Source: a virus
Taxonomy: Duplodnaviria > Caudoviricetes
IMG/VR virus record: IMGVR_UViG_3300028563_000021
Location: 873-64,872 of that record
DNA length: 64,000 nucleotides
Direction: 5' to 3' (one strand)
Shown here: piece after piece, positions 4,614-63,411 of the stretch
Numbering within the stretch: the first letter of the stretch is position 1
How the letters are laid out: each line of letters opens with the position of its first letter
The notes under the pieces: generated by a model
The model's database searches: none
Seen by the model: only the letters and a program-made list of their open reading frames with translations
What the model was told of the DNA's origin: nothing
Program-made: the position numbers and the translations under genes

Positions 4614-5551
4614 ACGACAAACTCACAATCAGCACTTTTGAGTTATTCAAGATGTTCCCGGATCAAGAATCGGCGCGGTTATATCTCGAAAAACGCCTTT
4701 GGCCTGAAGGTTGCCGTTGCCCAGTCTGCGGCATTGGCGACCGAGTGACGGCGCGCAAAAACGGTTTCTATCGCTGCAACCAGTGTAAGGAAGATTTCAC
4801 GGTGCGCACTGGCACGATCTTTGAGCGGTCACATGTTCCTCTGCACAAATGGCTGTATGCCATGTACATGCTAGTAACGGCGCGCAAGGGCATTTCCTCA
4901 TTGCAGTTAAGCAAGGAAATCGACGTTACGCAAAAATCTGCGTGGTTCATGTTGCAAAGGCTCCGCGAAGCCTGCGGCAATGATCCTACGATTTTGAGCG
5001 GCGTTGTCGAGGTCGATGAAACGTATATCGGCGGCAAAGAATCAGCCAAGCACGAATCGAAAAAGCTCAATGCTGGGCGTGGGGCGGTCGGCAAGACTGC
5101 CGTTATGGGCATGCGTGAGCGCGGCGGTAGAGTCAATGCCGTTGTCCTGAATGGCACAACTTCAACCGAAATGCTAGGCCACATCTTCACCAATGTGCAG
5201 GCCGGCTCAACTGTTTGCACCGACGAACATTCGTCATATCAAGCATTGCCGCCGCTTGGCCTGCCGCTTGATATTCCCGCTTACGACCATCAAACGGTCA
5301 ATCACAGTGCGAAAGAGTACGTCAACGGAATGGCGCACACCAACGGCATTGAGAGCGTGTGGGCCGTTCTGAAGCGCGGTCTGCACGGTGTTTATCATCA
5401 CGCCAGCCCGAAGCACATCGGACGCTATGTCAATGAATTTGCGTTCAGGCTGAATGACGGCAACGTGAAGCGGTTGACGCTCGCTCGGATGGATAGTTTC
5501 ATCAAAGCATGTTCCGGTTGCCGCATTACATACAAGGAGTTGATAGCATGA
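4610..5551 (+). CDS. IS1595-family DDE transposase
   Basis: Zn ribbon CPVC...CNQC, FTVRTGTIFE, HTH GISSLQL, catalytic VEVDETYIGG, TDE, VNHS, HTNGIESVW, YVNEFAFR. Confidence 0.97.
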   Translation: MNDKLTISTFELFKMFPDQESARLYLEKRLWPEGCRCPVCGIGDRVTARKNGFYRCNQCKEDFTVRTGTIFERSHVPLHKWLYAMYMLVTARKGISSLQLSKEIDVTQKSAWFMLQRLREACGNDPTILSGVVEVDETYIGGKESAKHESKKLNAGRGAVGKTAVMGMRERGGRVNAVVLNGTTSTEMLGHIFTNVQAGSTVCTDEHSSYQALPPLGLPLDIPAYDHQTVNHSAKEYVNGMAHTNGIESVWAVLKRGLHGVYHHASPKHIGRYVNEFAFRLNDGNVKRLTLARMDSFIKACSGCRITYKELIA

Positions 5552-5685
5552 AAGAACCAAAAGCTCCGCCAGCACTTGACCTGATTGCAGATAAGGTGCT
5601 GGCATTTCGTCCCAAACCAAAGAGCGAACCAGCCAAAAAACGTGCAAAAGCGCGTAAGAAATTGGATAGGGAATCAAAGATATAA
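5548..5685 (+). CDS. small basic 45-aa protein downstream of the transposase
   Basis: Manual ORF MKEPKAPPALDLIADKVLAFRPKPKSEPAKKRAKARKKLDRESKI; ATGA-coupled; stop lies in the right TIR; C-terminus conserved in element B. Confidence 0.7.
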   Translation: MKEPKAPPALDLIADKVLAFRPKPKSEPAKKRAKARKKLDRESKI

Positions 5686-5766: not shown

Positions 5767-6291
5767 TTATTGCCTCTCAAATTGAGCCAAAATACTTTCC
5801 ATTGACGCCTGCGCCACAATGGGAGAAGCCGCTGGCCAGAGGTACTTTTGCGCGTGCGGTGTCCGCAGAAATTCGAGAACGCCGTCGCGGTAAATGCTGA
5901 AATCGCCTTCGTCGCACTTGGCAAAGCTGATGCTTTTTGGTACCGGGAAGACACCGCCCTTTGGCCCTTGCGCCCAGAATATCCAGCCTGATCCCACCTT
6001 AAGCCACAAGCGGAAGGCTTCTCGATCCTTGATGCGCTCTTGATTCTTGAAGATTTCGCCTTCAAGCTTCATTTGCTTTTTGTGAATCGGCAGATAGCGC
6101 GGGATCAGCGTGGCGATCGAAAAGAATTCGCCGCTTCCCATGCGCCAGATCGTGTTCCAGAATCTACGCCAGGCTTTTTTATCTTCCTCTGCTTGGCCGT
6201 CGATCAATCCGAACAGGCAATCGCGTAGCACTTCGCGCTGATGCTCGGTAAGTTCTATATCTGACTGCTTGCATAGAAGCATTTCGCTCAT
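5767..6291 (-). CDS. DUF1367-like phage protein
   Basis: EAFRLWLKVGSG...PKSISFAKCDEGDF motif. Confidence 0.65.
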   Translation of the reverse strand: MSEMLLCKQSDIELTEHQREVLRDCLFGLIDGQAEEDKKAWRRFWNTIWRMGSGEFFSIATLIPRYLPIHKKQMKLEGEIFKNQERIKDREAFRLWLKVGSGWIFWAQGPKGGVFPVPKSISFAKCDEGDFSIYRDGVLEFLRTPHAQKYLWPAASPIVAQASMESILAQFERQ

Positions 6292-7882: not shown

Positions 7883-8086
7883 TCATTTCCTAACTTTTGG
7901 CTTTTTGCAAATCTTTTTATGCAGCTTAAGCAGGCGATTGCCTAATTTCATTGTCGGGCGTTCGCCACGGTCGCCTCGAACAAATTTGCTTATAGTAGCT
8001 TGGTTGCACGGTACCTTATCAGCAAGTTCCTGCTGAGTTAATCCGGTAGCCAGCATTTCCGCGACAATTTGATTTATATTTTCCAT
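7883..8086 (-). CDS. Cro/XRE-like HTH regulator
   Basis: MENINQIVAEMLATGLTQQELADKVPCNQATISKFVRG...P...LGNRLLKLH. Confidence 0.85.
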   Translation of the reverse strand: MENINQIVAEMLATGLTQQELADKVPCNQATISKFVRGDRGERPTMKLGNRLLKLHKKICKKPKVRK

Positions 8087-8858: not shown

Positions 8859-9140
8859 ATGAAACTTAAAGACTTGATTGCTAGCTTTGACCAGCGAGCC
8901 AACGGCACGCCGCATGGGGAGTTTTATTTGACTGAACGGCAAAGTAATTTTGCTCGCGTACTCGCTGACAAAGAACAGGTTTCACTAGAGGCAGTCGCTG
9001 CGGAGCACGGCGTTTCGTTCCGCGACTGGTCAATCGGAAAGAATATGCGGTTTTATGGCACCAAGCATTTTGCACAGGAAGTCACACGAGCCAATGCATC
9101 GAACCAGCGCGGGATAGACCGTGTGATAGCAAATCATTAG
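8859..9140 (+). CDS. IS passenger gene B1, hypothetical
   Basis: AGGA RBS, ATG, 93 aa. Confidence 0.7.
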   Translation: MKLKDLIASFDQRANGTPHGEFYLTERQSNFARVLADKEQVSLEAVAAEHGVSFRDWSIGKNMRFYGTKHFAQEVTRANASNQRGIDRVIANH

Positions 9141-9876: not shown

Positions 9877-10686
9877 ATGGAGAATCAAATGGGCAATGAA
9901 TTATCAACTTTTACCCTTGAGCCGCGCAGTTTGGCCGAGGCAATGGAATACGCCAAAATCATCGCGTCCAGCGACATGGTGCCGAAGGATTATATCAACA
10001 AGCCCGGTAACGTTCTCGTTGCTGTGCAGACTGGCGCAGAGCTTGGACTGAAGCCTATGCAGTCTCTTCAGGGTATCGCGGTAATCAATGGCCGTCCGAC
10101 GATCTGGGGCGATGCCCAATGGGCACTCGTGGCCGGTCATCCTGACTTCGAATATTCGAAAGATGACTTGACCGACACAAAGGCGACGGTATGGCTCAAA
10201 CGTCGCAACCAGCCAGAAATAATGCGTTCGTTTTCAATTGATGACGCGAAAAAGGCCGGGCTTGCAGGAAAGTCTGGGCCGTGGTCAACAAATCCAAAAC
10301 GCATGATGCACATGCGCGCTCGTGCGTTCGCTTCGCGTGACCTGTTCCCTGATGCACTCAAAGGCATTAAGTCAGTCGAGGAAGTTCGCGACTACGGGCC
10401 AGAATGTCAAACCGAAATCGATATCACGCCAAAGTCCGAAACAAAAGCGGAAATCAAAGGCCCGGAATTTCTGACCAGCGAAAAATTTGAAGCCAACAAA
10501 GAAGCATGGCGCAAGTTGATCGACACGAAGAAAAAAACGGTCGATACGCTGATTGCGTTCCTTGATTCGAAAGCGCCGCTGACTGAGTCGCAGAAATCTG
10601 AAATCAAATCATGGGAAGTAATGCCAGTGCAGACAGAGGTCGTTGATGACTTCAATGCCGGCCTTGATTCCTACGTTCCAGAATAG
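9877..10686 (+). CDS. recT: RecT-family single-strand annealing protein
   Basis: SDMVPKDY..KPGNVLVA...GAELGLKPMQSLQGIAVINGRPTIWGDA...GPW...PKRM...RDLFPDALKG. Confidence 0.85.
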   Translation: MENQMGNELSTFTLEPRSLAEAMEYAKIIASSDMVPKDYINKPGNVLVAVQTGAELGLKPMQSLQGIAVINGRPTIWGDAQWALVAGHPDFEYSKDDLTDTKATVWLKRRNQPEIMRSFSIDDAKKAGLAGKSGPWSTNPKRMMHMRARAFASRDLFPDALKGIKSVEEVRDYGPECQTEIDITPKSETKAEIKGPEFLTSEKFEANKEAWRKLIDTKKKTVDTLIAFLDSKAPLTESQKSEIKSWEVMPVQTEVVDDFNAGLDSYVPE

Positions 10687-10699
10687 GGAGGAAAATATC

Positions 10700-12505
10700 A
10701 TGCAAGTTATACCAGTATCGCAGGGATCAAGCGAGTGGCTAGCTGTTCGCGCAACGCATCTGTGTGCCAGTGAAGCGGCGGCAATGCTCGGTTTCGACAA
10801 GGCGACGACGCGGACGCAATTGCTTCAATTGAAGCACACCGGACTCGGCAAAGAGTTCTCCGAGTGGGTTCAAACCAATCTGCTTGATAAGGGCCACGAA
10901 ATAGAAGCGGCAACGCGCCCAATCGGAGAGGAAATAATAGGGGAAGAGCTTTACCCGTGCATCGGAACTATTGAGGTTGACGGCCTTCGTTTGCTCGCCA
11001 GCTTCGACGGCATGACGATGTGCGAAGACGTTGTTTGGGAATGCAAAAGCCGCAATGCTTCGTTGATAGCGGCAATGGCGGACGGCGATTTGCCGGATAC
11101 GCATTGGCCGCAGGTCGAGCAGCAATTAATGATTAGCAACGCGGATAAAGCGCTCTTCACTTGCGGCGATGGCACAGCGGAGCACACTGATCACCTATGG
11201 TATCAGTCGCGTCCAGAGCGTCGCGCAAAGATCGTCGCAGGGTGGCATCAATTTGCCAAGGATTTGGCAAATTACAAGCAGGTCGAAATCGTTGAAAAGC
11301 CAAAGGCTGAAGCGATCATGCAACTGCCTGCGGTGGTAATCAATGTGCACGGTGAACTCGCGCTTTGCAACCTTGGAGACGTCACGCCAAAATTTGACGC
11401 TTTTTTGTCCGGCGCAAATATTGATCTGAAGACTGACGACGATTTTGCAAACGGCGAAGCAACGGCAAGATTCAGTCGCTCCACTGCGAAGACGCTCAAG
11501 CTCAAGGCTAAAGAGGTAATTGGTCAAATCGCAACCGTAAGCGAGGCCGTCTGTACCTTGGAACTGTATGCGGATAAGTTTGATGCGCTCGGCCTGAAGC
11601 TCGAAAAAGCTGTGACGGGCCAGAAAGAGACCATCAAGACCAACATATTGAACGCGGCAAAATTGGCATTCACTGAACACGTCGCGAGCCTGGAAGCGGA
11701 AATCAAACCAATCCGTTTAGTGCACGCTCAACCGGATTTCGTTGGCGCGATGAAAAACAAGCGCACGCTGGCCAGCCTGCACGATGCCGTCGATACTGAG
11801 CTGGCCAATGCCAAGATCAACACCGACGCTATCGCTAAGGGCGTTAGAACGCGGATGGGCTGGTGTAAGACGAATGCCGAAGGCTTTGGCTTCTTGTTTG
11901 CCGATCTGCAAAGCATCATCTACAAGGCCGATGACGACTTCCATCTGATTGTGACGACTCGCGTCGATGCGCACAAAAAGGCGGAAACCGACAAGATCGA
12001 GGCAGAGCGCGCGAAGATTCGGGCCGACGAGGAAGCCAAGGCGACCGCCAAAGCTGCAGAGGACACCCGCCGTCAAGTGGCCGAAGCGCAGGCCAAGGCG
12101 GAGGCAGAAGCAAAGGAAAAGGCTGACGCTGATGCGAAGGTTTTGCGGGAAGCGGAGCAAGCGCACGCAGCCGCACCAGTCCAGGCACCAGCGCAAGAAA
12201 GTATTGCTCCTGCAATAGCTGCCACGCCTCCGCCTGTCCGCGCTCCGGAATCGTATCAGTTCCCGGCGCGGTCAACGGAATCTAGCCACACATCAGCCGA
12301 ATCTTCGGTATTGGTCAACCTCGGCAGCATCAACGCCGCCCTTGGCTTCACGGTGACGGCTGACTTTCTTGGGCGTCTTGGCTTTGACGCCGTACAACAA
12401 AAGAACGCGAAATTGTATCGCGACTCTGATTTTCAACGAATCTGTGCCGCGATCGTGCGTCACGTTCAAATCGCTGCAGCTACGCCATTGAAGTCCGCAG
12501 CTTAA
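10700..12505 (+). CDS. YqaJ-like (lambda exonuclease family) recombinase nuclease with long coiled coil
   Basis: QGSSEWLAVR..HLCASEAAAMLG...GHEIE...LLASFDG...WECK...QVEQQL; adjacent to recT. Confidence 0.9.
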   Translation: MQVIPVSQGSSEWLAVRATHLCASEAAAMLGFDKATTRTQLLQLKHTGLGKEFSEWVQTNLLDKGHEIEAATRPIGEEIIGEELYPCIGTIEVDGLRLLASFDGMTMCEDVVWECKSRNASLIAAMADGDLPDTHWPQVEQQLMISNADKALFTCGDGTAEHTDHLWYQSRPERRAKIVAGWHQFAKDLANYKQVEIVEKPKAEAIMQLPAVVINVHGELALCNLGDVTPKFDAFLSGANIDLKTDDDFANGEATARFSRSTAKTLKLKAKEVIGQIATVSEAVCTLELYADKFDALGLKLEKAVTGQKETIKTNILNAAKLAFTEHVASLEAEIKPIRLVHAQPDFVGAMKNKRTLASLHDAVDTELANAKINTDAIAKGVRTRMGWCKTNAEGFGFLFADLQSIIYKADDDFHLIVTTRVDAHKKAETDKIEAERAKIRADEEAKATAKAAEDTRRQVAEAQAKAEAEAKEKADADAKVLREAEQAHAAAPVQAPAQESIAPAIAATPPPVRAPESYQFPARSTESSHTSAESSVLVNLGSINAALGFTVTADFLGRLGFDAVQQKNAKLYRDSDFQRICAAIVRHVQIAAATPLKSAA

Positions 12506-51989: not shown

Positions 51990-52577
51990 CTATACGCGGA
52001 TTTGCCGCGCATTGGCCGCCACATCGCTCAAATCCTGCTCACGCATCGCATATACCGCCCGCGTCGAATGTGAATCAACGATCTCTTGCAAATCAGATAC
52101 CAAATCGAGCGCAATTCCCTTGTCCGGCTCTTTCATCAACAATTCGGCTTTGCCGGTCCCTTTGCAGTGAATACATGTGCGCCGGTCGGAATCGACGCCA
52201 GCGCCTTCGCAGACCCCGCAGCGGTCATCCAAAAAATAGGCTAGTGCAGACTGCCCAACGCGCACATAAAGCGCCTCTGCGCTCGCTGCGTCGCGTCTTG
52301 GAGTGCTTCCGCCTTTGTGCCACTTACGATGTTCGCCTTTGTTGCGCACCATCGGCAACCATATCCGCAGCGCCTCGGAAAAGTTGCGGCACCCTGATTC
52401 GAAAAGCATCTTACTGTTGCCGTCCGCCCAGAGGATGCGGAGAAGAATTGCGCCAAGGCCGGAAATATCCCGACTTGCCCAGCCTGACGCCGCCAGCGGT
52501 TCGCACGAATAATGCCGCTCGCTGTCTTGGAGATTTGAGGAATTAACTGAACGCGCATATGCTTTTTTGAAATTCAA
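51990..52577 (-). CDS. antitermination protein Q-like
   Basis: YARSVNSSNL N-terminus, CGVCEGAG...CIHCKGTG zinc finger, position upstream of the late promoter and terminator. Confidence 0.7.
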   Translation of the reverse strand: MNFKKAYARSVNSSNLQDSERHYSCEPLAASGWASRDISGLGAILLRILWADGNSKMLFESGCRNFSEALRIWLPMVRNKGEHRKWHKGGSTPRRDAASAEALYVRVGQSALAYFLDDRCGVCEGAGVDSDRRTCIHCKGTGKAELLMKEPDKGIALDLVSDLQEIVDSHSTRAVYAMREQDLSDVAANARQIRV

Positions 52578-54565: not shown

Positions 54566-55063
54566 CTAAACCCTCAATACACCAGTTCTATCGAACTCAC
54601 GCAAAGCCGCCCGCGCCGCCCGGTCAATCTGAATATTCGTCACCGTCTGTAAATATGCCATCGTCTTGCCGGTTCCAAGTTGCAGTAAATGCAGTTCGTC
54701 GCCAGTGACAGCAAGCTTCCCGATGCGCTGGGTGCGCTCTTGTATCGCGGCGCATGCCTCTACCATACCTTGAGCGTATGGAAGCACTGAATGGCCGTTT
54801 GGCGCGATCCTGCGCACTATGTCGGCGTTGCTCAGTAAGTCATAGACATGTTGCTCGCAAAAATGAGGTTGACCGAGCGCGAGACTTGCTTGATAGCCCG
54901 GTATCTCCATTTTCACGGCATCACGAATGCCAAGCGGTAAAACGCATGGTTTCGCTCGATACGCCTTACGCGGTTTGGATGACTTCCCCATTTCAGCCGC
55001 CAGCGCCTTCTTCGCATGGAACTTTGCACTTGCCGCAACATCCTTGCCTATGTGTCGGGTCAA
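54566..55063 (-). CDS. hypothetical phage protein
   Basis: SSKPRKAYRAKP N-terminus...R.G....GDEL pattern. Confidence 0.65.
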   Translation of the reverse strand: MTRHIGKDVAASAKFHAKKALAAEMGKSSKPRKAYRAKPCVLPLGIRDAVKMEIPGYQASLALGQPHFCEQHVYDLLSNADIVRRIAPNGHSVLPYAQGMVEACAAIQERTQRIGKLAVTGDELHLLQLGTGKTMAYLQTVTNIQIDRAARAALREFDRTGVLRV

Positions 55064-55772: not shown

Positions 55773-56838
55773 CGTTTTTACCCCCCCCCACCTCTGATCT
55801 GTAGTCCCGTGCCGCTGGTGTCGACCATTGGTACACAGTTTGTCGCAGCGACGGTGTATTGCGATTCATCTCTGAAGCACACACCCCGCGATTCATTTCC
55901 GATGCTTTTGGCGTAGGCCAATTCTCCACATCCAGAATCAATGCCCTGTTGCGCTCGCCCTGTCCGCTGCGCTCCAATGCCGTCGGCATTATCCAGTGTG
56001 TCACCTGTTTCGCAAACTCGCCGCCCGCGCCAGCCTTCCCGGTTTCCGCTTCCATCCCCGACATTCCGTGCGGTGTCAGCCAGGTATTCGCTTGTGCCTT
56101 CAGCTTCGGCTCGCCGCGTGAGTTCCGCCCGCTGCCGCTCGCTTCCTCGTCCTTCGGCGTCTGCCAAAGCATTGCTTTCGCTTGATTTCCAAGTCCAGCT
56201 ACTTGGCTTTTCCGATTGCTTCCTGTGTTCGGCGCTTCCGGCATCGAATCCGGCGTATCCCATTTTCCATGCGAGACAAAACCATCTTGCGCGACCATGC
56301 GAGGCACCCACGTCGGACGCAGAAATAACGATCCATTCCGAATTCCACCCGAGGTCGGCCAATTCTCCCATGACTCTGGCGGCCGCGCGCTCGTCAAGTT
56401 CGCCTTCGGCTTCGCCCACAACGGAGGCGGTGGCAGTAGCGATGCCAGCGACGTTCTCCAAAAGGATGAATCGCGCACCGCTATCGGTTGCGATTTGAAT
56501 GGCGTCGAAAACGAGTCCGCTTCGCTTGCCGTCAAGTCCTTCTCTGCGACCGGCAATAGATAGGTCCTGACATGGTGTTCCGGCAATGACGCAATCCACC
56601 ATTCCGCGAAATTGCTTGGCTGGCAGTTCTCTAAAATCGCCGAACCAGATAGGCGCCGCATCCAGGCTTCCCTCTTCCATGCGCGCAGCCAAGACGCTGA
56701 CAGGGTAAGCTTCCCGTTCAGCGTAGAGGATCGTTCGGCTTCGGATGCCCATGAACTCAAGTCCGGCAGAAGCTCCGCAATCGAACATTCCGACGCCTGC
56801 GCATAGGCTGATAATATTGAAGGTGAAACTATCCACAT
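55480..56838 (-). CDS. C5 MTase alternative-frame chain: WxTP repeats joined to a motif X tail as sequenced
   Basis: Open for about 450 codons overlapping the catalytic frame; six W-x-(T/M)-P repeats; ends QLRALGNGCVP (motif X). Confidence 0.75.
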   Translation of the reverse strand: MWIVSPSILSAYAQASECSIAELLPDLSSWASEAERSSTLNGKLTLSASWLRAWKREAWMRRLSGSAILENCQPSNFAEWWIASLPEHHVRTYLLPVAEKDLTASEADSFSTPFKSQPIAVRDSSFWRTSLASLLPPPPLWAKPKANLTSARPPESWENWPTSGGIRNGSLFLRPTWVPRMVAQDGFVSHGKWDTPDSMPEAPNTGSNRKSQVAGLGNQAKAMLWQTPKDEEASGSGRNSRGEPKLKAQANTWLTPHGMSGMEAETGKAGAGGEFAKQVTHWIMPTALERSGQGERNRALILDVENWPTPKASEMNRGVCASEMNRNTPSLRQTVYQWSTPAARDYRSEVGGGKNDGAFQSTVGAELTGIHPLFAPGPADTRWFGIIDRFPWLAPAISDETQSILCAESHGLADTLDFDNRSAQLRALGNGCVPLQAATALVLLARRAGIFE

Positions 56839-56866
56839 TTTCAAGTTCCTTGAACTTATTTTTCAT
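55778..56866 (-). CDS. DNA cytosine-5 methyltransferase catalytic chain (motifs I-VIII), stops right after the G9 tract
   Basis: SLCAGVG (I), AGTPCQDLS.AG (IV), LENV (VI), GASHGRARWF (VIII); ATG 56866 overlaps the upstream stop. Confidence 0.92.
   Translation of the reverse strand: MKNKFKELENVDSFTFNIISLCAGVGMFDCGASAGLEFMGIRSRTILYAEREAYPVSVLAARMEEGSLDAAPIWFGDFRELPAKQFRGMVDCVIAGTPCQDLSIAGRREGLDGKRSGLVFDAIQIATDSGARFILLENVAGIATATASVVGEAEGELDERAAARVMGELADLGWNSEWIVISASDVGASHGRARWFCLAWKMGYAGFDAGSAEHRKQSEKPSSWTWKSSESNALADAEGRGSERQRAELTRRAEAEGTSEYLADTARNVGDGSGNREGWRGRRVCETGDTLDNADGIGAQRTGRAQQGIDSGCGELAYAKSIGNESRGVCFRDESQYTVAATNCVPMVDTSGTGLQIRGGGG
55781..55789 (-). repeat. G9 homopolymer tract
   Basis: Nine C on the + strand at the frame junction of the MTase ORFs. 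Confidence 0.9.
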
Positions 56867-57195
56867 TTGGTAATCAAAACATCTATGCCCAGCACAGTTT
56901 TCATCAAATGTTGCTTGATGCGAAACGCCTGCGTCATCACACCCTTGCAGTCCTCGACGATCCGTGCGCCCGACTTGGAATCCTGATAAACGAAGTCGGC
57001 ACGATAAATCAATGCTCGCTTCGCCTTGCCGCCGACGATTGCGCCGGGCGCGAGAATGAATGAAGCTTGACGCGACAAATCCGTGATGTGACCGGCGCGC
57101 GCCAAAATCTGCAATTCCTGATACCGGCGGCATTCGGCTTTCGAATCGAATGTCATGCCGTCAAGGGTGACTTTCTTGTTGCGGTACTTGGTCAT
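56863..57195 (-). CDS. DUF1064 PD-(D/E)XK endonuclease
   Basis: KYRNKK...DG.TFDSKAE..RY...YRADFVY...VEDCKG. Confidence 0.92.
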   Translation of the reverse strand: MTKYRNKKVTLDGMTFDSKAECRRYQELQILARAGHITDLSRQASFILAPGAIVGGKAKRALIYRADFVYQDSKSGARIVEDCKGVMTQAFRIKQHLMKTVLGIDVLITK

Positions 57196-57283: not shown

Positions 57284-57442
57284 TCATTTCGAAACTCCCG
57301 GTAAAGTTGCAATATTAAGAACCGCAGCGGCAATCCAGTAGGCGACCTGCGCCCAATTACCAGCACAGGCCCAACGGATCGCGGCGGCCAGGAACATGGC
57401 GATAATCGCGAAGTTAAATATCCGAGGGTCGCTAATCATCAT
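57284..57442 (-). CDS. small two-TM membrane protein
   Basis: FNFAIIAMFLAAAIRW...YWIAAAVLN. Confidence 0.6.
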   Translation of the reverse strand: MMISDPRIFNFAIIAMFLAAAIRWACAGNWAQVAYWIAAAVLNIATLPGVSK

Positions 57443-58793
57443 TGAATCCACGTGATTTAGGAGCCTGCTTTTTTGGCGGAGCTGGGTGCCATTGATGCGC
57501 CATGCTCTCAAAGCGAACTTGCTCTCCGATATATGCGAGCGCAACAATTCCCGGAGCGCCCTGGCGATTCAACGCGATATTGACTTCACAGACGCCTTTA
57601 TCCTGTGTGTCTGGGTTGTAGACCTCATCTCGGTACAGGAATATCGCAATATCGCAATCCTGCTCAATTGATCCTGAATCTCGAAGATCAGACGGCATTG
57701 GACGTTTATTGGGACGCTCTTCCAATTTTCGATTGAGTTGCGACAACAATAGAATCGCGATGTCCAACTCTTTTGCGAGCGCCTTCAGTCCGCGTGTGAT
57801 GCCCTCGATCTGCGCGTTCCTGTTTGTTCCCTCGCCGGACATGAGCTGCAGGTAATCGATTACCAACACGTCAAGACCGGCCTTGCGCTTGATGATCTTA
57901 GCCTTGGATCGCACGTCAAGCAGAGTAAGTGCCGGTTGATCATCGATGTAGAGACGCATTTTCGAGATTTTCTGCACGGCATACGTAACCCCAGGCCAAT
58001 CCTCATCGGAAAGTTGGCGCGGGTCGATTAGATGGTCGAGATGAATTTTCCCAATACTGGACAAATTTCTATCGTGAAGCTCGCTACGCCCCATTTCCAT
58101 TGAGAACACAGCGGAAATTCCATCGACGGCCACATGATTTGCAATGTTCACCGCAAGGCCTGTCTTCCCCATCTTCGGCCGACCAGCAACCACAATCAAA
58201 TTCCCGCGCCGCAAGCCGCCATTCAGCCGTTTGTCAATATCTGGATATCCGGTCGATATTGCAGCTATTTCCGCGCCACGATACCGCTCATCAATCGAAG
58301 TGATATGCGCAAGCATGTCATCCGCAGCCAGCACCGGTTCATTTCGAACGTGTGCGCGCGCCAACTCTTCCAACTTGGAGGAAAGACGGTCAACCAATGC
58401 GGGAGCGTCCTCAATCGATTTTTCAATCGACTCCTCAGTTTCCCGGCAGAGAGAAATAATACCGCGCTTGATTGCCCGGTCCCTGACGATGCCAGAATAC
58501 TGCCGGATGTTGACCGAGCTGGCAGTGTTCTGTTGCAGGTCCGTCAGGTAGGACAGATCGGCTGCGCTTGATCCTGCCGCTTGAAGCGCATCAAAAACCG
58601 TTATGACGTCCGCACCCTTTCCTGCCGTGACGATCTTGACAATCGTTTCGAATATCTTGCGATGATCGGCATTGAAAAAATGCTCACCCCGCAAATCGCC
58701 GATGCCGTCAATTGCATCGTTGTTCATCAACAGCGCACCAATCACGAACTGCTCTTGCTCGCGCGCCACCAGACGACTTTCCTTTGCGCTCAT
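57432..58793 (-). CDS. dnaB: DnaB-like replicative helicase
   Basis: AGRPKMGKT, FSMEM, IDYLQL, LSQLNR, DLRDSGSIEQD. Confidence 0.97.
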   Translation of the reverse strand: MSAKESRLVAREQEQFVIGALLMNNDAIDGIGDLRGEHFFNADHRKIFETIVKIVTAGKGADVITVFDALQAAGSSAADLSYLTDLQQNTASSVNIRQYSGIVRDRAIKRGIISLCRETEESIEKSIEDAPALVDRLSSKLEELARAHVRNEPVLAADDMLAHITSIDERYRGAEIAAISTGYPDIDKRLNGGLRRGNLIVVAGRPKMGKTGLAVNIANHVAVDGISAVFSMEMGRSELHDRNLSSIGKIHLDHLIDPRQLSDEDWPGVTYAVQKISKMRLYIDDQPALTLLDVRSKAKIIKRKAGLDVLVIDYLQLMSGEGTNRNAQIEGITRGLKALAKELDIAILLLSQLNRKLEERPNKRPMPSDLRDSGSIEQDCDIAIFLYRDEVYNPDTQDKGVCEVNIALNRQGAPGIVALAYIGEQVRFESMAHQWHPAPPKKQAPKSRGFNDD

Positions 58794-59578
58794 GGCGTCC
58801 CTTTATGATATTTTCCTTCGACAACTTTCGCAAAGTTTTGCGGGTTCACAAGCCAATCCAAGCTCACGACAAACGGGTCACGACCTGGCGACGCTGCCGC
58901 CCGGCCGGTCAGAAACTCGGATTCTGCTACGTAGACAAAAAACTTCCGCCACCAATCAACCGACTGTCGCTTTGCACTCTCCCTCCATCTGGCTTGCAAA
59001 TGCTTGGCGCGCGCGCCGTTCCATACTCGGACGCGAGTACCGACCGGAATCGATTCGTGGTATGTGGCGATTATTTCCTGATGCGGACAAGCGACGTTGG
59101 CAACCTCGTTGCCGACAACTACCTCGTCAGAGGTAGTAGGTTTTAAGTCTTTTCTTATCTCATCTAATCTCTTCTCTTCTAGCGTTCGGTTGCGTTCGGT
59201 TGCGTTCGGTTGCGTTTGATCTCGTTCTTTTTCTGCCTTTTGAGCCTCACGCCATGCCTTTGCACGCTCTGCGGCACCATCTTCCTTGATTGGCTGGCGC
59301 TTTCCCCATCCAAGCAGATAATCACCATCCAACACGCGGCCTTGCATAGCGTTGCGAATCGCTTCAACCTGGCTTGTTTCGATATCCAGTGCGGTCGCTA
59401 CATCTTCGTCGTTCCACCCTTCCGTTCGTCCGCGTTCGGTTGCGTTCGATGCTGCTGTGAGCATGTGGATATAGGTCGCGACGACATCGCCAATTTTTTG
59501 GCCGGATGCGCGTGCAATAGTTCGCCATTTCGGGTCGTTGATCATGTCAGACCAAAGGCGGAACCACGGATTTGACAT
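58790..59578 (-). CDS. replication initiator (O-like)
   Basis: PWFRLW.DM..DPK N-terminus, internal iterons, C-terminal LDWLV.P.NF.KV.EGKY; upstream of dnaB. Confidence 0.88.
   Translation of the reverse strand: MSNPWFRLWSDMINDPKWRTIARASGQKIGDVVATYIHMLTAASNATERGRTEGWNDEDVATALDIETSQVEAIRNAMQGRVLDGDYLLGWGKRQPIKEDGAAERAKAWREAQKAEKERDQTQPNATERNRTLEEKRLDEIRKDLKPTTSDEVVVGNEVANVACPHQEIIATYHESIPVGTRVRVWNGARAKHLQARWRESAKRQSVDWWRKFFVYVAESEFLTGRAAASPGRDPFVVSLDWLVNPQNFAKVVEGKYHKGTP
59181..59220. repeat. origin iterons (TGCGTTCGGT)x4
   Basis: 10-bp tandem units beside an AT/purine-skewed tract inside the initiator gene; further copies at 59431-59450. Confidence 0.75.
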
Positions 59579-59880
59579 TACGCAACCTTTCCAATGCCGT
59601 ATAATTCGCCAAACTTTTCAACATCGGCGAACAATATGCACTCTCCAGCGCGATTAGTTATCGGATTCGCCCATGATTGTTTTGGCGCTACCGGGGCAAG
59701 CTTTCGCGTGCATCGATCACATGATGGAATCTCTGCGCCGTCGCACTTGGCAAGGTCGGCGCGGTATCCAAGGTTGATGTGCTCGCTGGCGCACAGACCG
59801 CCGCCTTGTAACGCGGTATCGTTGCCCACGGGCGTTTGACTTGTTGGTTTTTTTGGAGGAAAAATTTTCATTTTAATCAA
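59578..59880 (-). CDS. Cys-rich hypothetical protein
   Basis: DLAKC.G....CDRC.R...C pattern. Confidence 0.55.
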   Translation of the reverse strand: MIKMKIFPPKKPTSQTPVGNDTALQGGGLCASEHINLGYRADLAKCDGAEIPSCDRCTRKLAPVAPKQSWANPITNRAGECILFADVEKFGELYGIGKVA

Positions 59881-59885
59881 AATCC

Positions 59886-60302
59886 TTAATATGCCAATTC
59901 CACGCGATTGTCGTCAAGAATAGCCTGCATTTCCAACTTGAAATCGAATCCATCGACCATTGGAACCGGAATTTTCTTCAACCTCAAAGCCGCCATCATG
60001 CATGCAGGGCAATTATTTGCAGCTTGTCGAAATGATGGAAGACAGTCTTTCATCGCTTGGGAAAAGCGCGTATATTCATTGTCGCTGCCAGAGAATAAAT
60101 TAGCATTAAGGAATTCAGTTGGGTCTGGTAGCATGGCAACCAATGCCGCAAGATCGGTGCCTTCCTGAAGAATTTCGCACACTCTGCACTCGCGTTTAGG
60201 ATTCAATGTGCAATGCAATTCGTGTTTAACCATTGCACGAGATTGCAATCCTGCCTTGTTGCAGAAATCACACCAGTATCGAGTTACTTTTTTCGATCTC
60301 AC
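59886..60302 (-). CDS. Zn-binding hypothetical protein
   Basis: YWCDFC...HELHCTLNP.REC.VC...CPAC. Confidence 0.7.
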   Translation of the reverse strand: MRSKKVTRYWCDFCNKAGLQSRAMVKHELHCTLNPKRECRVCEILQEGTDLAALVAMLPDPTEFLNANLFSGSDNEYTRFSQAMKDCLPSFRQAANNCPACMMAALRLKKIPVPMVDGFDFKLEMQAILDDNRVELAY

Positions 60303-60556
60303 CAAAGCACTTTCAGGAAGAATCCGGCGATAAACCCGGAAAGAAAAACGCCCGAACTCTGGCACAGACGCTTGTCTATGTCGCTTCCTGAAAATACTCT
60401 GATGATATTCATTTTTGGCCTAGAGTTTTGGAGTATCGGATTATCATCCCGATATCAAAAGTATTTCACAAATCCGCACGCCGCGCAACGACTATGTACG
60501 TTGGCGTACAGACTTTTATTTATTTTTCGAATCTTTCCGACAAGATGGTGAATGCT

Positions 60557-60585
60557 GAGCCTATCCCCGCTCGCGCGGGGGAATC
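60557..60585 (-). CRISPR. solitary type I-E-like CRISPR repeat (no array, no cas genes)
   Basis: GATTCCCCCGCGCGAGCGGGGATAGGCTC: 29 nt, 21/29 identical by manual alignment to the E. coli I-E repeat; CCCCGC/GCGGGG stem and 8-nt 3' tail. Confidence 0.6.
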
Positions 60586-60614
60586 GTTTTTTAGGCTTGC
60601 GGGGAATCATACTT

Positions 60615-61061
60615 CTACTTTTCGCCTTCAATCAATAGCATTGCGGCGTGGAACCCATCGCGGAATGCGCAAGATTCACGGTGCGGAGTATTTTCGGTTC
60701 CCCACATCGCTTCAGCTTTATTCATTTCCGAAAGATGATCTTCAGTGCAATCGAAATTAGTTTTTCTGCGCAGGTTTATTCCATGCAAATATGCATGCAT
60801 TACCGCCGCTGATGTGTTGTATCCCCACTTCGATTGGATCGCATGTAGTTGCCTCAGTTCTTCGCCGGTAAGAAGTGGCGTCTCCGTTCCCTCTAAAGAT
60901 CGAGTGATCGCAGAAAACATCCTATCTTCAACTTTTGAATATTCTACATACAATCTCGCCTCTTCAACAATTTCATTATCAGACATGCGCACCTTGTATC
61001 TACAACCAGTTTCTTTGGTGCGGCCACAATCGCCGCCACAGGATTTGCATTGTTTGGTCAT
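60615..61061 (-). CDS. hypothetical protein
   Basis: CKSCGG.C....GC.Y N-terminus; coupled operon. Confidence 0.6.
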   Translation of the reverse strand: MTKQCKSCGGDCGRTKETGCRYKVRMSDNEIVEEARLYVEYSKVEDRMFSAITRSLEGTETPLLTGEELRQLHAIQSKWGYNTSAAVMHAYLHGINLRRKTNFDCTEDHLSEMNKAEAMWGTENTPHRESCAFRDGFHAAMLLIEGEK

Positions 61062-61263
61062 TTCAATCCTTTAAGTTTTATCTTCGGCTTAACATCGACT
61101 TGCACGAGACATTGATAATTAAGAGTTCCTTCGGTGCGATTGTCGCATTTGACAACGATGCGCATCCTGTTCTTATCGAAATCCCTGCGAACCAATTTAA
61201 ACCATTCGCCAGTGCGTAGTAATTTAAAACGAGCGCCATCGGCGACTAGTCGTAGTTCGCAGA

Positions 61264-61734
61264 TCATTTCAAATATTCCCCATCGCGTTCCGTCCAATCT
61301 GGGCCATGATTATCTGATTTATCACTTAATTTAAGTCGCGCAATCTCGTCAGATAAACAGCGATTCTCTTTTGTGAGAATATTGATCTCATTGGTTTTTT
61401 GTCGATCAGAGTCAATGTATCTTTGCATTTCAAGTGTCATCCTCTCGATTTCTTCTATAATCGGGCCAGCGCCCTCCGCATCTTCTGGAAGAAGTCCGAT
61501 TGATTCATGTACGCTAGCAATGTCTTTCACTGCTTGAAGGAATAAAGATTCATAATCTGGCTTGTCAAATTCTTCAATCCTTTCAAGCGCCAACAAAACA
61601 AGCTCAACGCCTTCCATTGACGGAAAGAAGTCGGACGATTCAGCAGAAAAGAAATCCTGAATCCGACGTAGGAATTTTGGATCAATCTGCCATCCGTTCT
61701 TTACGGAATTATGGTCACGCGGGAACTTAAACAT
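61264..61734 (-). CDS. hypothetical coiled-coil protein
   Basis: AAGGA RBS; coupled operon. Confidence 0.6.
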   Translation of the reverse strand: MFKFPRDHNSVKNGWQIDPKFLRRIQDFFSAESSDFFPSMEGVELVLLALERIEEFDKPDYESLFLQAVKDIASVHESIGLLPEDAEGAGPIIEEIERMTLEMQRYIDSDRQKTNEINILTKENRCLSDEIARLKLSDKSDNHGPDWTERDGEYLK

Positions 61735-62178: not shown

Positions 62179-62309
62179 TTGAGTAACCCCATCATTTCCA
62201 ATATTGACCGGCTCCGCACCCTAGCGACGTTGAACTGCGCGCGCACCGTTTCACGATCGATGCCCATGTTTGCGTAGCCGCCATCGTAGTAAGCATGGCA
62301 TGCACTCAT
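62175..62309 (-). pseudogene. orphaned 3' end of the DUF1364 gene
   Basis: MSACHAYYDG...SILEMMGLLK parallels CSACHDVLDG...SIVEMMGLLK of 63016-63411. Confidence 0.8.
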
Positions 62310-63019
62310 AGTAGAAATCCTCTCGATTGCATGTATTCAATGGGGTCTTTGGCAGATTTTCGAACGTTGCACGTCGGACAAAGTAATTGAATATTATTTG
62401 GTTCGTGCTTACCGCCGCGCGCGAGCGCGGTTATGTGATCGACGTGATACTTATCGACAACCGAGCATTTGCATATCGCGCACTTTTTCCGCTGCAACTC
62501 AAAAAGCTTTGCCACAAATCCGCGTGGGAGACGACCTGTTTTTCTGCCATGTCTTTTTTTGGAGAATTCGCGCACCTTGTGAGGATTTGATTTTCGATAG
62601 GCACGAAGTTTTTCAGCCATAAAAGGCTTTGCCCTAGCAAGTGACGCTTCCGGTCCGCCAGTCCAATCGGGATGGTCCGGGCCACTTTTGCGATGAACTC
62701 GCCCCTCGGTATGCGCTTGAAGCATTCCAGAAACACGCTTTGCTACATTTTCAGACGAATTTAAAATGTCGTGGTTGAACTTAATGCCGCAACCTTTTGA
62801 GCAAAATTTTCCCTGACCGACATCAATTTGCGTTTGTCGCGCAACGAATGAAGTTGAGCATTGCAAGCAAATTCTCGTTCTGCGCGCAATACTTTTCTCT
62901 TTTTCAGTGGCGGCGTGTGCCTTTTTGCATGCCGATGAACAACAATGCTCGCGCCAATCCCTGCATTGCGGAATATGGAAATCCTTCTGGCAGTTACGGC
63001 ATTGCTTAATTATTCTCAT
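62306..63019 (-). CDS. HNH (homing) endonuclease with Zn-finger repeats
   Basis: CAIC...HVDHITALARGGKH...NIQLLCPTCNVRKS; N-terminal C..C...F...CS..C repeats. Confidence 0.92.
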   Translation of the reverse strand: MRIIKQCRNCQKDFHIPQCRDWREHCCSSACKKAHAATEKEKSIARRTRICLQCSTSFVARQTQIDVGQGKFCSKGCGIKFNHDILNSSENVAKRVSGMLQAHTEGRVHRKSGPDHPDWTGGPEASLARAKPFMAEKLRAYRKSNPHKVREFSKKRHGRKTGRLPRGFVAKLFELQRKKCAICKCSVVDKYHVDHITALARGGKHEPNNIQLLCPTCNVRKSAKDPIEYMQSRGFLL

Positions 63020-63411
63020 TTCAATAGCCCCATCATTTCAACAATCGATTGCGTGACGCGAATGCCATTCAGAAAGCACGCATCAACCTGCTCAATGGTC
63101 AAGCATTCTGGTCGCGGCGCGCGCCCATCTAGCACGTCATGGCATGCACTGCAACCAAATGCAGCGCGAGTGTCTGGAGCCTTGATGCCCAGTCCTTTGC
63201 CGTCGGCAAGCTTGTTTGAGTGGCAAAGCACCGTCGTTTCTGGATTGAAGTTGCAGACCATTGGCAATCTGATCGTGCAATCCTGCCCCTTGGCCGCACG
63301 GCGGATCGGCGTCATCTTCAGTCCTTTAGACTTCATGCGCTTCGACCGCTTTAGGAAGCTTGTCGGCTTGAGCAAGTCCTTTTCCTTTTGCTTGAACCCG
63401 GAGCGTTTCAT
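63016..63411 (-). CDS. DUF1364 (YbcO-like) nuclease-fold protein
   Basis: AAKGQDCTIRLPMVCNFNPETTVLCH...G.GIK..D..AAFGCSACHD.LDGR. Confidence 0.9.
   Translation of the reverse strand: MKRSGFKQKEKDLLKPTSFLKRSKRMKSKGLKMTPIRRAAKGQDCTIRLPMVCNFNPETTVLCHSNKLADGKGLGIKAPDTRAAFGCSACHDVLDGRAPRPECLTIEQVDACFLNGIRVTQSIVEMMGLLK

What the first reader, a model, noticed from the sequence alone, without database searches (positions are those of the whole stretch)
60490..60610. Solitary type I-E CRISPR repeat: candidate RNA anti-CRISPR
Seen: a 29-nt unit with the I-E hairpin CCCCGC-GCGA-GCGGGG and 8-nt tail ATAGGCTC, oriented with early transcription in a gene-poor gap. A half copy GATTCCCCGC lies just upstream and a TGTACG/CGTACA hairpin about 45 nt downstream; no cas genes or second full repeat. 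Known: Cas6e cuts at the stem base leaving an 8-nt 5' handle, and phage solitary repeat units can act as Racrs. Inference: a Cascade decoy, or a mini-guide using the following ~32 nt; it would also point to a host with type I-E CRISPR.
Basis: partly seen in the sequence, partly recalled or inferred. Interest (0 to 1): 0.72.

Follow-up and report, generated by a model that had tools for sequence, protein, structure and literature searches.

The report
Lone CRISPR repeat in a phage
A soil phage carries one copy of a bacterial type I-E CRISPR repeat between two early genes, most likely a decoy RNA that ties up the host's CRISPR proteins, a trick already known from other phages.

Summary
On the minus strand at 60585-60557 lies a 29-nt unit, GATTC-CCCCGC-GCGA-GCGGGG-ATAGGCTC. 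It matches the repeat of real 61-nt-period CRISPR arrays of Comamonadaceae-type Burkholderiales at 27 of 29 positions, with an exact 25-nt core. One such array sits directly behind a type I-E cas operon. No shuffle of the window gives such a match (0 of 100). The unit matches only in the transcribed orientation (22-27 of 29, against 15-18 reversed).

It is solitary and intergenic, and it points the same way as the flanking early genes. A sigma-70-like site lies just upstream. The record holds no Cas6e or Cas7e. The overlapping 51-aa ORF has no homologue and no coding signal.

At least 11 other viral contigs, in three separate gene contexts, carry lone units of the same repeat family.

Best reading (about 0.55): a solitary repeat unit acting as a type I-E RNA anti-CRISPR (Racr), a decoy for Cas6e and Cascade. 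This kind is known (Camara-Wilpert 2023). Expression, Cas6e cleavage and inhibition were not testable, and the host is unidentified.

The mini-guide idea found no target. The unit is a new member of a known kind, of moderate interest.

The parts
60557..60585 (-). Solitary type I-E CRISPR repeat unit (SRU): GATTC / CCCCGC-GCGA-GCGGGG / ATAGGCTC. The Cas6e cut is predicted between 60565 and 60564, by analogy with type I-E processing (recalled).
   Evidence: Sequence. It is 27 of 29 identical to the array repeat of L042, L023 and L080. The exact 25-nt core scores 50.1 bits. None of 100 shuffles matches.
60606..60635 (-). Sigma-70-like promoter site: TTGATT, 18-nt spacer, TATGAT. The predicted start is near 60599, about 14 nt before the unit.
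   Evidence: 9 of 12 consensus matches. Such sites are no more frequent here than in shuffles (3 found, 2.2 +/- 2.0 expected), so this is only consistent with a promoter.
60600..60609 (-). A 10-nt copy of the repeat's 5' part (GATTCCCCGC, one C short). It overlaps the -10 hexamer and has no 3' arm, so it forms no hairpin.
   Evidence: It covers only 10 of 29 nt of the unit. The local alignment of the unit to the upstream 100 nt scores 0.52. Its origin is unexplained.
60592..60597 (-). Leader segment AGCCUA, complementary to the handle segment UAGGCU (60563-60558). It is predicted to clamp the base of the repeat hairpin.
   Evidence: minimum free energy structure and centroid. The z-score is only -1.89 for the 121-nt fold (8 of 200 shuffles fold as well). 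Function unknown.
60525..60556 (-). The 32 nt that follow the handle, tested as a possible guide or pseudo-spacer.
   Evidence: No second copy in the window at up to 3 mismatches. No match in viral contigs or genome contigs with every sixth base left free. Best match in the 1.42 Mb of fetched loci: 16 nt with one mismatch, E = 3.4.
60495..60510 (.). Perfect palindrome TGTACG-CCAA-CGTACA. It begins 69 nt after the predicted cut and its stem is unrelated to the repeat. It is probably an operator or a plus-strand terminator, not a second repeat.
   Evidence: Unique in the window (1 match, 0.06 expected). It scores as a plus-strand terminator-like site.
60440..60469 (-). Second promoter-like site (GTGAAA, 18-nt spacer, GATAAT), ahead of the 37-aa ORF and the zinc-finger gene.
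   Evidence: 9 of 12 consensus matches.
60455..60610 (-). The 51-aa ORF that overlaps the unit. Judged non-coding.
   Evidence: No homologue in the 5.8-billion-cluster search, within its word-based sensitivity. No Pfam or PHROG family. Codon score -0.374, not the best of its six frames; the off-frame mean is -0.354.
60615..61061 (-). Upstream gene of 148 aa, function unknown. It sets the left border of the gap.
   Evidence: Best of its six frames by codon score. No Pfam, PHROG or PDB match. The Atlas lists only viral hypothetical clusters, below its lead threshold of 0.9.
59886..60412 (-). Downstream genes. A 37-aa ORF (60412-60299) has a stop that overlaps the likely GTG start (about 60305) of a CxxC zinc-finger-like protein (to 59886). 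The replication module follows: RepO-like 58790-59578 and DnaB 57432-58793.
   Evidence: relatives in L188 and L189 start at the matching position. for the replication genes.

Best explanation
The unit is a real type I-E CRISPR repeat captured by a phage and kept as a solitary repeat unit. It most likely acts as an RNA anti-CRISPR (Racr).

Shown:
- its sequence identity to natural repeats;
- its sense orientation;
- that it is solitary and intergenic;
- that the record has no cas genes;
- that the same repeat family recurs as lone units in other viruses.

Inferred:
- It is transcribed early, either from the promoter-like site at 60635-60606 or by read-through from the upstream early genes.
- The RNA folds into the same 6-bp stem with GCGA loop as the host repeat.
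- Host Cas6e binds it and cuts 3' of the stem, between 60565 and 60564.
- Cas6e stays on the upstream product. That product lacks a 5' handle, so it cannot recruit Cas5e and Cas8e.
- Cas6e, and probably Cas7e, are thereby withdrawn from crRNA maturation and Cascade assembly, and interference against the phage weakens.
- The downstream product starts with a handle changed at an otherwise invariant base (C28 to T). This suggests the handle is not under selection to work.
For: 1. Identity. The unit is 27 of 29 identical to the repeat GGTTCCCCCGCGCGAGCGGGGATAGGCCC of a Comamonadaceae array (L042, 10 copies). The same repeat occurs in L023 and L080. Five further arrays match at 26 of 29: L012, L025, L052, L091 and L112. 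The 16-nt stem-loop is identical.

2. Subtype. The L052 array follows genes for Cse2, Cas7e (PF09344), Cas5, Cas6e (PF08798), Cas1 and the I-E-type Cas2.

3. Not chance, and not just a GC hairpin. None of 100 shuffles matches. Across 25 arrays, sense-strand identity is 22-27 of 29 and reverse-strand identity is 15-18.

4. Strand. The sense strand of the unit is the coding strand of all neighbouring genes.

5. Position. A promoter-like site ends 20 nt upstream of the unit. [quoted passage not shown]

6. Recurrence. Of 64 viral stretches found by the loose pattern, 11 carry a lone unit at 26 or more of 29 to the consensus. They fall into three unrelated contexts: L132/L163; L137/138/153/156/170/175/181; and L159/L177.

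7. Precedent. Two type I-E Racrs inhibited a Pseudomonas aeruginosa type I-E system. In RacrIF1 the stem-loop is essential and the handle is dispensable.

8. Pattern of change. The stem-loop is intact, while handle base 28 is T. That base is C in 670 of 672 array copies.
Against: - No expression data exist. None of the 24 listed runs that hold the DNA is on record as RNA.
- The promoter-like site is a minimal 9 of 12 match, and such sites are as common in shuffles.
- A transcript from that site would leave only about 35 nt upstream of the cut. RacrIF1 leaves 70-76 nt to carry a Cas7 filament.
- No terminator follows the unit on the minus strand, so a discrete small RNA is not evident.
- No known acr gene was recognised nearby, although Racr candidates tend to cluster with acr genes.
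- The host is unknown. The phage is 51% G+C, while the loci with the closest repeats are about 60-68%.
- All population copies in four metagenome runs are identical across the unit, so selection cannot be judged.
- By SRUFinder's rule, the best repeat found here covers 86% of the query, below the 90% required for a 'full match'.
Confidence: 0.55

Rival explanations
1. Neutral scar or recombination patch. The repeat was picked up by recombination with a host CRISPR array. It persists without function, or serves only as a short homology patch for exchange with host arrays.
For: The 10-nt half copy 24 nt upstream looks like a rearrangement scar. The T at base 28 otherwise occurs only in one terminal array repeat (L186, 1 of 672 copies) and in a degenerate mini-array repeat (L003). 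This fits a decaying copy. No sequence variation is available to show constraint. The promoter evidence is weak. The Racr paper notes an earlier suggestion that SRUs may enable integration into arrays.
Against: The hairpin is perfect and the 25-nt core is exact. The unit is in sense orientation, in a non-coding gap. The same family recurs as lone units in three other unrelated viral contexts, which is hard to explain by repeated neutral accidents. No tyrosine integrase was found in the record.
Confidence: 0.22
2. One-repeat guide (mini-CRISPR or crlRNA-like). After the Cas6e cut, the handle plus the following 32-40 nt load into host Cascade. They direct it to a rival phage, or partly match a host promoter and repress it.
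For: The handle matches the array consensus at 7 of 8 positions. The exact 24-mer, including T28, is the second repeat of a real two-repeat, one-spacer mini-array next to a Cas8e-position gene in L003. [quoted passage not shown]
Against: There is no second repeat at the 61-nt period. The only downstream hairpin begins 69 nt after the cut, with an unrelated stem. The 32-mer has no match in the window, in viral contigs or in genome contigs, and only chance-level matches in 1.42 Mb of fetched cas and array loci. Base 28, changed here, is invariant in working repeats.
Confidence: 0.1
3. Host Cas6e is used as an RNA-processing factor. The unit lies inside the long early transcript, and the Cas6e cut separates the upstream accessory genes from the replication genes, changing their stability or translation.
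For: No minus-strand terminator lies between the 148-aa gene and the downstream genes. Read-through RNA would therefore contain the unit in sense orientation.
Against: This is speculative and I know of no precedent. A second promoter-like site (60469-60440) already lies ahead of the downstream genes.
Confidence: 0.05
4. An ordinary hairpin, either a plus-strand intrinsic terminator or a structural element, that resembles a repeat by chance. Alternatively, part of a real 51-aa gene.
For: On the plus strand, both this hairpin and the TGTACG hairpin score as terminator-like (4 sites against 1.1 +/- 0.9 expected). An ORF of 51 aa spans the unit.
Against: The match extends into the unpaired flanks and exists only in sense orientation (27 against 15-18 of 29). 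None of 100 shuffles matches. The T-run starts 5 nt after the stem. No plus-strand gene lies nearby. The ORF has no homologue and no coding signal. A side role as an antisense terminator is not excluded.
Confidence: 0.04

Closest known systems
RacrIE1 and RacrIE2, and SRUs in general (Camara-Wilpert et al., Nature 2023, PMC10651486; passages and sections 9 and 30 read)
   Same: A single CRISPR repeat of a type I-E system in a viral genome. It is intergenic, lies behind a predicted promoter and has no cas genes nearby. The stem-loop is identical to natural repeats.
   Different: Those two were shown to inhibit the P. aeruginosa type I-E system; this one is untested. Its repeat belongs to a different I-E subfamily (handle ATAGGCCC, Burkholderiales/Rhodocyclales arrays). 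It has a half copy upstream and a changed handle base. I could not see their sequences or lists because supplements are closed. They scanned IMG/VR3, so this unit may or may not already be in their Supplementary Data 2.
RacrIF1 (type I-F; same paper)
   Same: The proposed mechanism: Cas6 binds and cuts the repeat mimic, and the upstream product forms a dead-end subcomplex. The stem-loop is essential and the handle is dispensable.
   Different: It belongs to a different subtype and a different Cas6. RacrIF1 leaves 70-76 nt upstream of the cut to carry 8-9 Cas7f. Here, only about 35 nt would lie upstream if transcription starts at the nearby promoter-like site.
Viral CRISPR mini-arrays (reviewed in PMC11656645; passages read)
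   Same: A host-type repeat carried by a virus that has no cas genes.
   Different: Mini-arrays have two or more repeats around a spacer that targets related viruses. Here there is one full repeat, and the following 32 nt have no detectable target.
Chromosomal regulatory mini-arrays (crlRNA or CreA type; bioRxiv 10.1101/2024.12.27.630466, abstract and one passage seen). Candidate example here: L003 4031-4116
   Same: The second repeat of the L003 mini-array shares the exact 24-mer (stem-loop plus ATAGGCTC) with the phage unit.
   Different: L003 has two repeats and a 32-nt spacer. It lies beside a Cas8e-position gene and HTH/HipA-like genes on a bacterial contig. That it is regulatory is my inference and was not tested.

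Membership tests
Type I-E CRISPR repeat (subfamily with handle ATAGGCCC) | About 29 nt: 5-nt 5' flank, 6-bp GC stem, 4-nt loop, 8-nt 3' tail | tested here: met
   The layout is the same as in 25 arrays.
Type I-E CRISPR repeat (subfamily with handle ATAGGCCC) | Close identity to repeats of arrays that adjoin type I-E cas genes | tested here: met
   27 of 29 to L042, 26 of 29 to L052. L052 carries cse2, cas7e, cas5, cas6e, cas1 and cas2 next to its array. The cas genes were checked in this one locus only, plus a Cas8e-position homologue in L003.
CRISPR array or viral mini-array | Two or more repeats at a period of about 61 nt around a spacer | tested here: not met
   Only one full repeat in the record. 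The flanks align at 0.52 and 0.48. The half copy covers 10 of 29 nt.
CRISPR array or viral mini-array | The spacer matches a related virus or another target | tested here: not met
   No match for the following 32 nt. Only exact matches outside every sixth base were sought in the public collections.
Solitary repeat unit as defined by SRUFinder | blastn-short identity of at least 90% and bit score of at least 41.1 to a known repeat | tested here: met
   100% over 25 nt, 50.1 bits.
Solitary repeat unit as defined by SRUFinder | Coverage of at least 90% of the repeat | tested here: inconclusive
   86% with the closest repeat I found. A search of one genome per species for an array repeat closer to the unit found none. 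SRUFinder's own database of 17,823 repeats was not available.
Solitary repeat unit as defined by SRUFinder | Intergenic, with no partial repeat above 70% in the flanking 100 nt, and no cas genes | tested here: met
   The gap runs from 60413 to 60614 between supported genes. The 51-aa ORF was rejected as coding. Flank alignments. No Cas6e or Cas7e.
Racr (functional RNA anti-CRISPR) | A promoter within 250 bp upstream, and expression as a small RNA | tested here: inconclusive
   A site lies at 60635-60606, but such sites are no more frequent than chance. No RNA run is on record.
Racr (functional RNA anti-CRISPR) | Bound and processed by the cognate Cas6 | not testable with these tools
   Only the identity of the 16-nt stem-loop to natural repeats is shown.
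Racr (functional RNA anti-CRISPR) | Inhibits CRISPR interference | not testable with these tools
   This needs a phage or plasmid challenge assay.
Racr (functional RNA anti-CRISPR) | The host carries the matching CRISPR-Cas subtype | tested here: inconclusive
   The host was not identified. None of 635 spacers matches. No prophage relatives were found.
Intrinsic terminator | A GC hairpin followed directly by a U-tract on the transcribed strand | tested here: not met
   There is no U-tract on the minus (gene) strand. On the plus strand, a T-run starts 5 nt after the stem.

The most novel reading that the evidence does not exclude
The unit is more than a Cas6e sponge: it is a one-repeat, 'handle-first' guide gene. 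The Cas6e cut frees an RNA that begins with a near-cognate 5' handle followed by phage-chosen sequence. Host Cascade assembles on this RNA without a 3' hairpin. The complex binds a partly matching site in the host or in a rival element, as a crlRNA does, so the phage reprograms the host's CRISPR effector rather than merely blocking it. Two features would belong to this design: the shared rare T28 with the L003 mini-array beside cas8e and hipBA, and the pairing of the leader with the handle.
Probability: 0.07. Interest if true: 0.7.

Novelty: new member of a known kind. Interest (0 to 1): 0.4.

Why it matters
If it works as proposed, it adds a type I-E Racr aimed at the Burkholderiales/Rhodocyclales repeat subfamily, a group of common soil, rhizosphere and wastewater bacteria. 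It gives a host clue for an uncultured 65-kb phage. It also offers a natural test case for which repeat bases a decoy must keep: the stem-loop is intact, while an invariant handle base is changed. The kind of element, and its mechanism in type I-F, are already published. The gain is therefore incremental, not conceptual.

Tried and rejected
- Rfam: no family reached its gathering score over the whole window. A permissive scan of 60450-60650 gave only sub-threshold hits to unrelated CRISPR-DR families on the other strand.
- Phage GenBank collection: no DNA match for 59800-61300.
- Relatives of the flanking genes:
  - The 148-aa protein has none in IMG/VR. In JGI metagenomes it has one 100% identical copy, on a contig that ends before the unit.
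  - The zinc-finger protein has two relatives (L188, L189; 53% and 48% identity) whose upstream regions hold no repeat unit.
  - So there is no comparative test of conservation.
- Population variation: contigs of four metagenome runs are identical across the unit.
- RNA evidence: no RNA holder listed.
- Host link:
  - 635 spacers from 29 fetched loci give a best ungapped match of 24 of 32 and a longest exact match of 18 nt.
  - The tail protein has no relative in genome contigs.
  - The zinc-finger protein was found in none of 5 array-bearing genomes.
  - It was also found in none of 400 scored genomes of the same class, with one further genome not scored.
- The exact 24-mer with T28 occurs once in genome contigs (L003), and not at all in viral contigs or metagenome contigs. 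The window's own record may be excluded from these collections.
- An array with the GATT variant of this repeat: none found.
- Known Acr or Aca neighbours: no Pfam, PHROG or PDB sequence match for the flanking ORFs. The Atlas was uninformative. No Acr-specific library was available.
- TGTACG hairpin as a degenerate second repeat: rejected because the stem is unrelated and the spacing is 69 nt.
- Supplementary tables of PMC10651486, which may already list this unit, could not be opened.

Full report
**What the window is.** The window is bases 873-64872 of a 64,872-nt IMG/VR virus record, rated 100% complete by CheckV. The finding lies in a run of minus-strand genes:
- two HNH endonucleases (62306-63019 and 63016-63411);
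- several unknown ORFs, including one of 148 aa (60615-61061);
- a gap;
- a 37-aa ORF and a CxxC zinc-finger-like gene;
- a RepO-like initiator (58790-59578), DnaB (57432-58793) and a C5 methylase (55778-57133).

Terminase and structural genes follow further down the same strand. The record has no tyrosine integrase. No tRNA and no Rfam family at gathering score was found.

**The observation.** Read on the minus strand, 60585-60557 is GATTC CCCCGC GCGA GCGGGG ATAGGCTC.

**Is it a CRISPR repeat?**
- Many of these are arrays with a 61-nt period, in Ottowia, Comamonas, Hydrogenophaga, Methylibium, Variovorax, Xylophilus, Thauera, Accumulibacter, Sulfuricella and others.
- The Comamonadaceae MAG locus L042 has 10 copies of GGTTCCCCCGCGCGAGCGGGGATAGGCCC. 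The phage unit differs at two positions, base 2 (G to A) and base 28 (C to T).
- The same repeat stands at a contig end in a Rhodoferax MAG (L023) and twice in L080.
- By blastn-short, the shared core is 25 nt at 100% identity and scores 50.1 bits.
- In the Comamonas locus L052, the array follows genes with Pfam domains of Cse2, Cas7e, Cas5, Cas6e, Cas1 and the I-E-type Cas2. The family is therefore type I-E. I checked cas genes in this one locus only.
- Array orientation is fixed by A/T-rich leaders on one side and decayed terminal repeats on the other.
- In that orientation the unit matches 25 arrays at 22-27 of 29. Reverse-complemented, it matches at only 15-18. The unpaired flanks therefore carry the match, not just the palindromic hairpin.
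- The consensus hits the window once at up to 3 mismatches, and hits none of 100 shuffles.

**Solitary and non-coding.**
- The whole record holds no other copy of the hairpin at up to 2 mismatches, apart from an unrelated palindrome.
- The unit aligns to its 100-nt flanks at 0.52 and 0.48 of its length, below SRUFinder's 0.70 limit.
- Cas6e and Cas7e profiles find nothing in the record.
- The 51-aa ORF has no homologue. Its codon score is -0.374. The mean for 51-codon windows of long phage genes is -0.354 off frame and +0.333 in frame.
- The flanking 148-aa, 139-aa, 100-aa and 156-aa ORFs are each the best of their six frames, all on the minus strand.

**Signals around it.**
- A sigma-70-like site (TTGATT, 18-nt spacer, TATGAT; 60635-60606) would start RNA about 14 nt before the unit. 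A second site lies at 60469-60440.
- Such sites are not enriched over shuffles: 3 found against 2.2 +/- 2.0 expected.
- No minus-strand terminator follows the unit. On the plus strand, both hairpins score as terminator-like.
- The fold pairs the leader AGCCUA (60597-60592) with the handle UAGGCU (60563-60558), but the z-score is only -1.89.

**Which bases changed.**
- In 672 repeat copies of 25 arrays, base 2 varies: G 567, T 73, A 32.
- Base 28 is C in 670 copies.
- The only array copy with T at base 28 is the last repeat of L186.
- The loci were found with a pattern that fixed most of the tail, so this conservation is partly by construction across arrays. Within arrays, all copies were counted.
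- The exact 24-mer with T28 occurs once in genome contigs, in a Burkholderiales MAG (L003).
- There it is the second repeat of a two-repeat, one-spacer mini-array behind a TTGACA promoter.
- That mini-array is divergent from a 539-aa ORF that is 64% identical to the Cas8e-position protein of L052. HTH and HipA-like genes lie beside it.

**Other viruses.** Of 64 viral stretches found by the loose pattern, 11 carry a lone unit at 26 or more of 29 to the consensus. They fall into three contexts:
- L132/L163, at 29 of 29;
- seven contigs of the L137 group, at 27 of 29;
- L159/L177, at 26 of 29.

L177 is about 50% G+C, like this phage. Its unit sits directly upstream of a NinB-like gene that is 45% identical to window 5767-6291. 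The family is therefore captured repeatedly, at different places.

**Mechanism.**
- The literature defines SRUs as lone repeats in viral genomes, often just downstream of a promoter and without cas genes. It reports 2,103 viral SRUs, including from IMG/VR3.
- RacrIF1 is bound and cut by Cas6f. Its upstream product carries Cas6f and a Cas7f filament but no Cas5f or Cas8f.
- Stem-loop mutations abolish RacrIF1 inhibition. Handle mutations do not.
- Two type I-E Racrs worked in P. aeruginosa.
- The phage unit fits this pattern: perfect stem-loop, altered handle, sense orientation. I rate the Racr reading at about 0.55.

**Weak points.**
- There is no expression evidence and no sequence variation.
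- The promoter call is weak.
- The upstream RNA piece would be short.
- No acr gene was recognised nearby.
- The host is unknown.
- The phage's G+C is 10 points or more below that of the loci with the closest repeats.
- SRUFinder's coverage rule is met only at 86% with the repeats I could find, and no closer array repeat turned up.

**Rivals.**
- A neutral scar or homology patch: about 0.22.
- A one-repeat guide: about 0.10. No target was found.
- Use of Cas6e to process the early mRNA: about 0.05.
- A chance hairpin, terminator or small gene: about 0.04.

**Verdict.** This is a new member of a known kind. It may even be listed already in supplements I could not open.

Noticed in passing
L003 4031-4116 (Burkholderiales MAG contig): A two-repeat, one-spacer mini-array lies behind a TTGACA/TAGTAT promoter. 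It is divergent from a Cas8e-position gene (64% identical to that of L052) and is followed by HTH and HipA_C genes. It looks like a CRISPR-guided regulatory (crlRNA or CreA-type) module with a toxin-antitoxin pair. Its second repeat shares the rare T28 with the phage unit.
   Followed up: partly
L132/L163; L137, L138, L153, L156, L170, L175, L181; L159/L177; L166: Other IMG/VR contigs carry lone units of the same type I-E repeat family, in at least three unrelated gene contexts. In L177 the unit abuts a NinB-like gene related to window 5767-6291. In L137 it lies between a zeta-toxin/AAA gene and an Ead/Ea22-like gene.
   Followed up: partly
L162 (14,564 nt): A repeat plus a degenerate second repeat (a mini-array) appears twice, at positions 5536-5559 and 9006-9029. 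The outer coordinates sum to the contig length plus one, so the contig is a perfect palindrome. This is probably an assembly artefact holding one real mini-array.
   Followed up: no
L186 (8,726-nt 'viral' contig, 67.6% G+C): It carries a 26-repeat type I-E array. This is either a host fragment called viral or a virus-borne array. Its last repeat is the only array copy with T at base 28.
   Followed up: no
window 60495-60510: A perfect 6-bp/4-nt palindrome, TGTACG-CCAA-CGTACA, is unique in the window. It lies 26 nt upstream of the -35 of the second promoter-like site and may be an operator.
   Followed up: partly
window 59886-60412 (minus strand): The mechanical 159-aa ORF probably starts at the GTG near 60305 (MRSKKVTRYW), as in the relatives L188 and L189. 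It overlaps the stop of a 37-aa ORF with a hydrophobic tail (60412-60299), an arrangement typical of translational coupling.
   Followed up: partly
window 52191-52208 and 54998-55013: One Hydrogenophaga spacer (L025) shares exact 18-nt and 16-nt stretches with two places in the window, around a common GAAGGCGCTGGCG motif. Full-length identity is only 21 of 32, so it is not a protospacer. The motif is repeated in the phage.
   Followed up: no
window 62415-62430: A 16-nt GC palindrome, CCGCGCGCGAGCGCGG, lies inside the HNH endonuclease gene. It is unrelated to the repeat family.
   Followed up: no
window 9877-12505 and 5767-6291: A RecT/RecE-like recombination pair lies on the plus strand and a NinB-like gene on the minus strand. 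A weak HTH match lies near 7967-8050. No tyrosine integrase was found.
   Followed up: no
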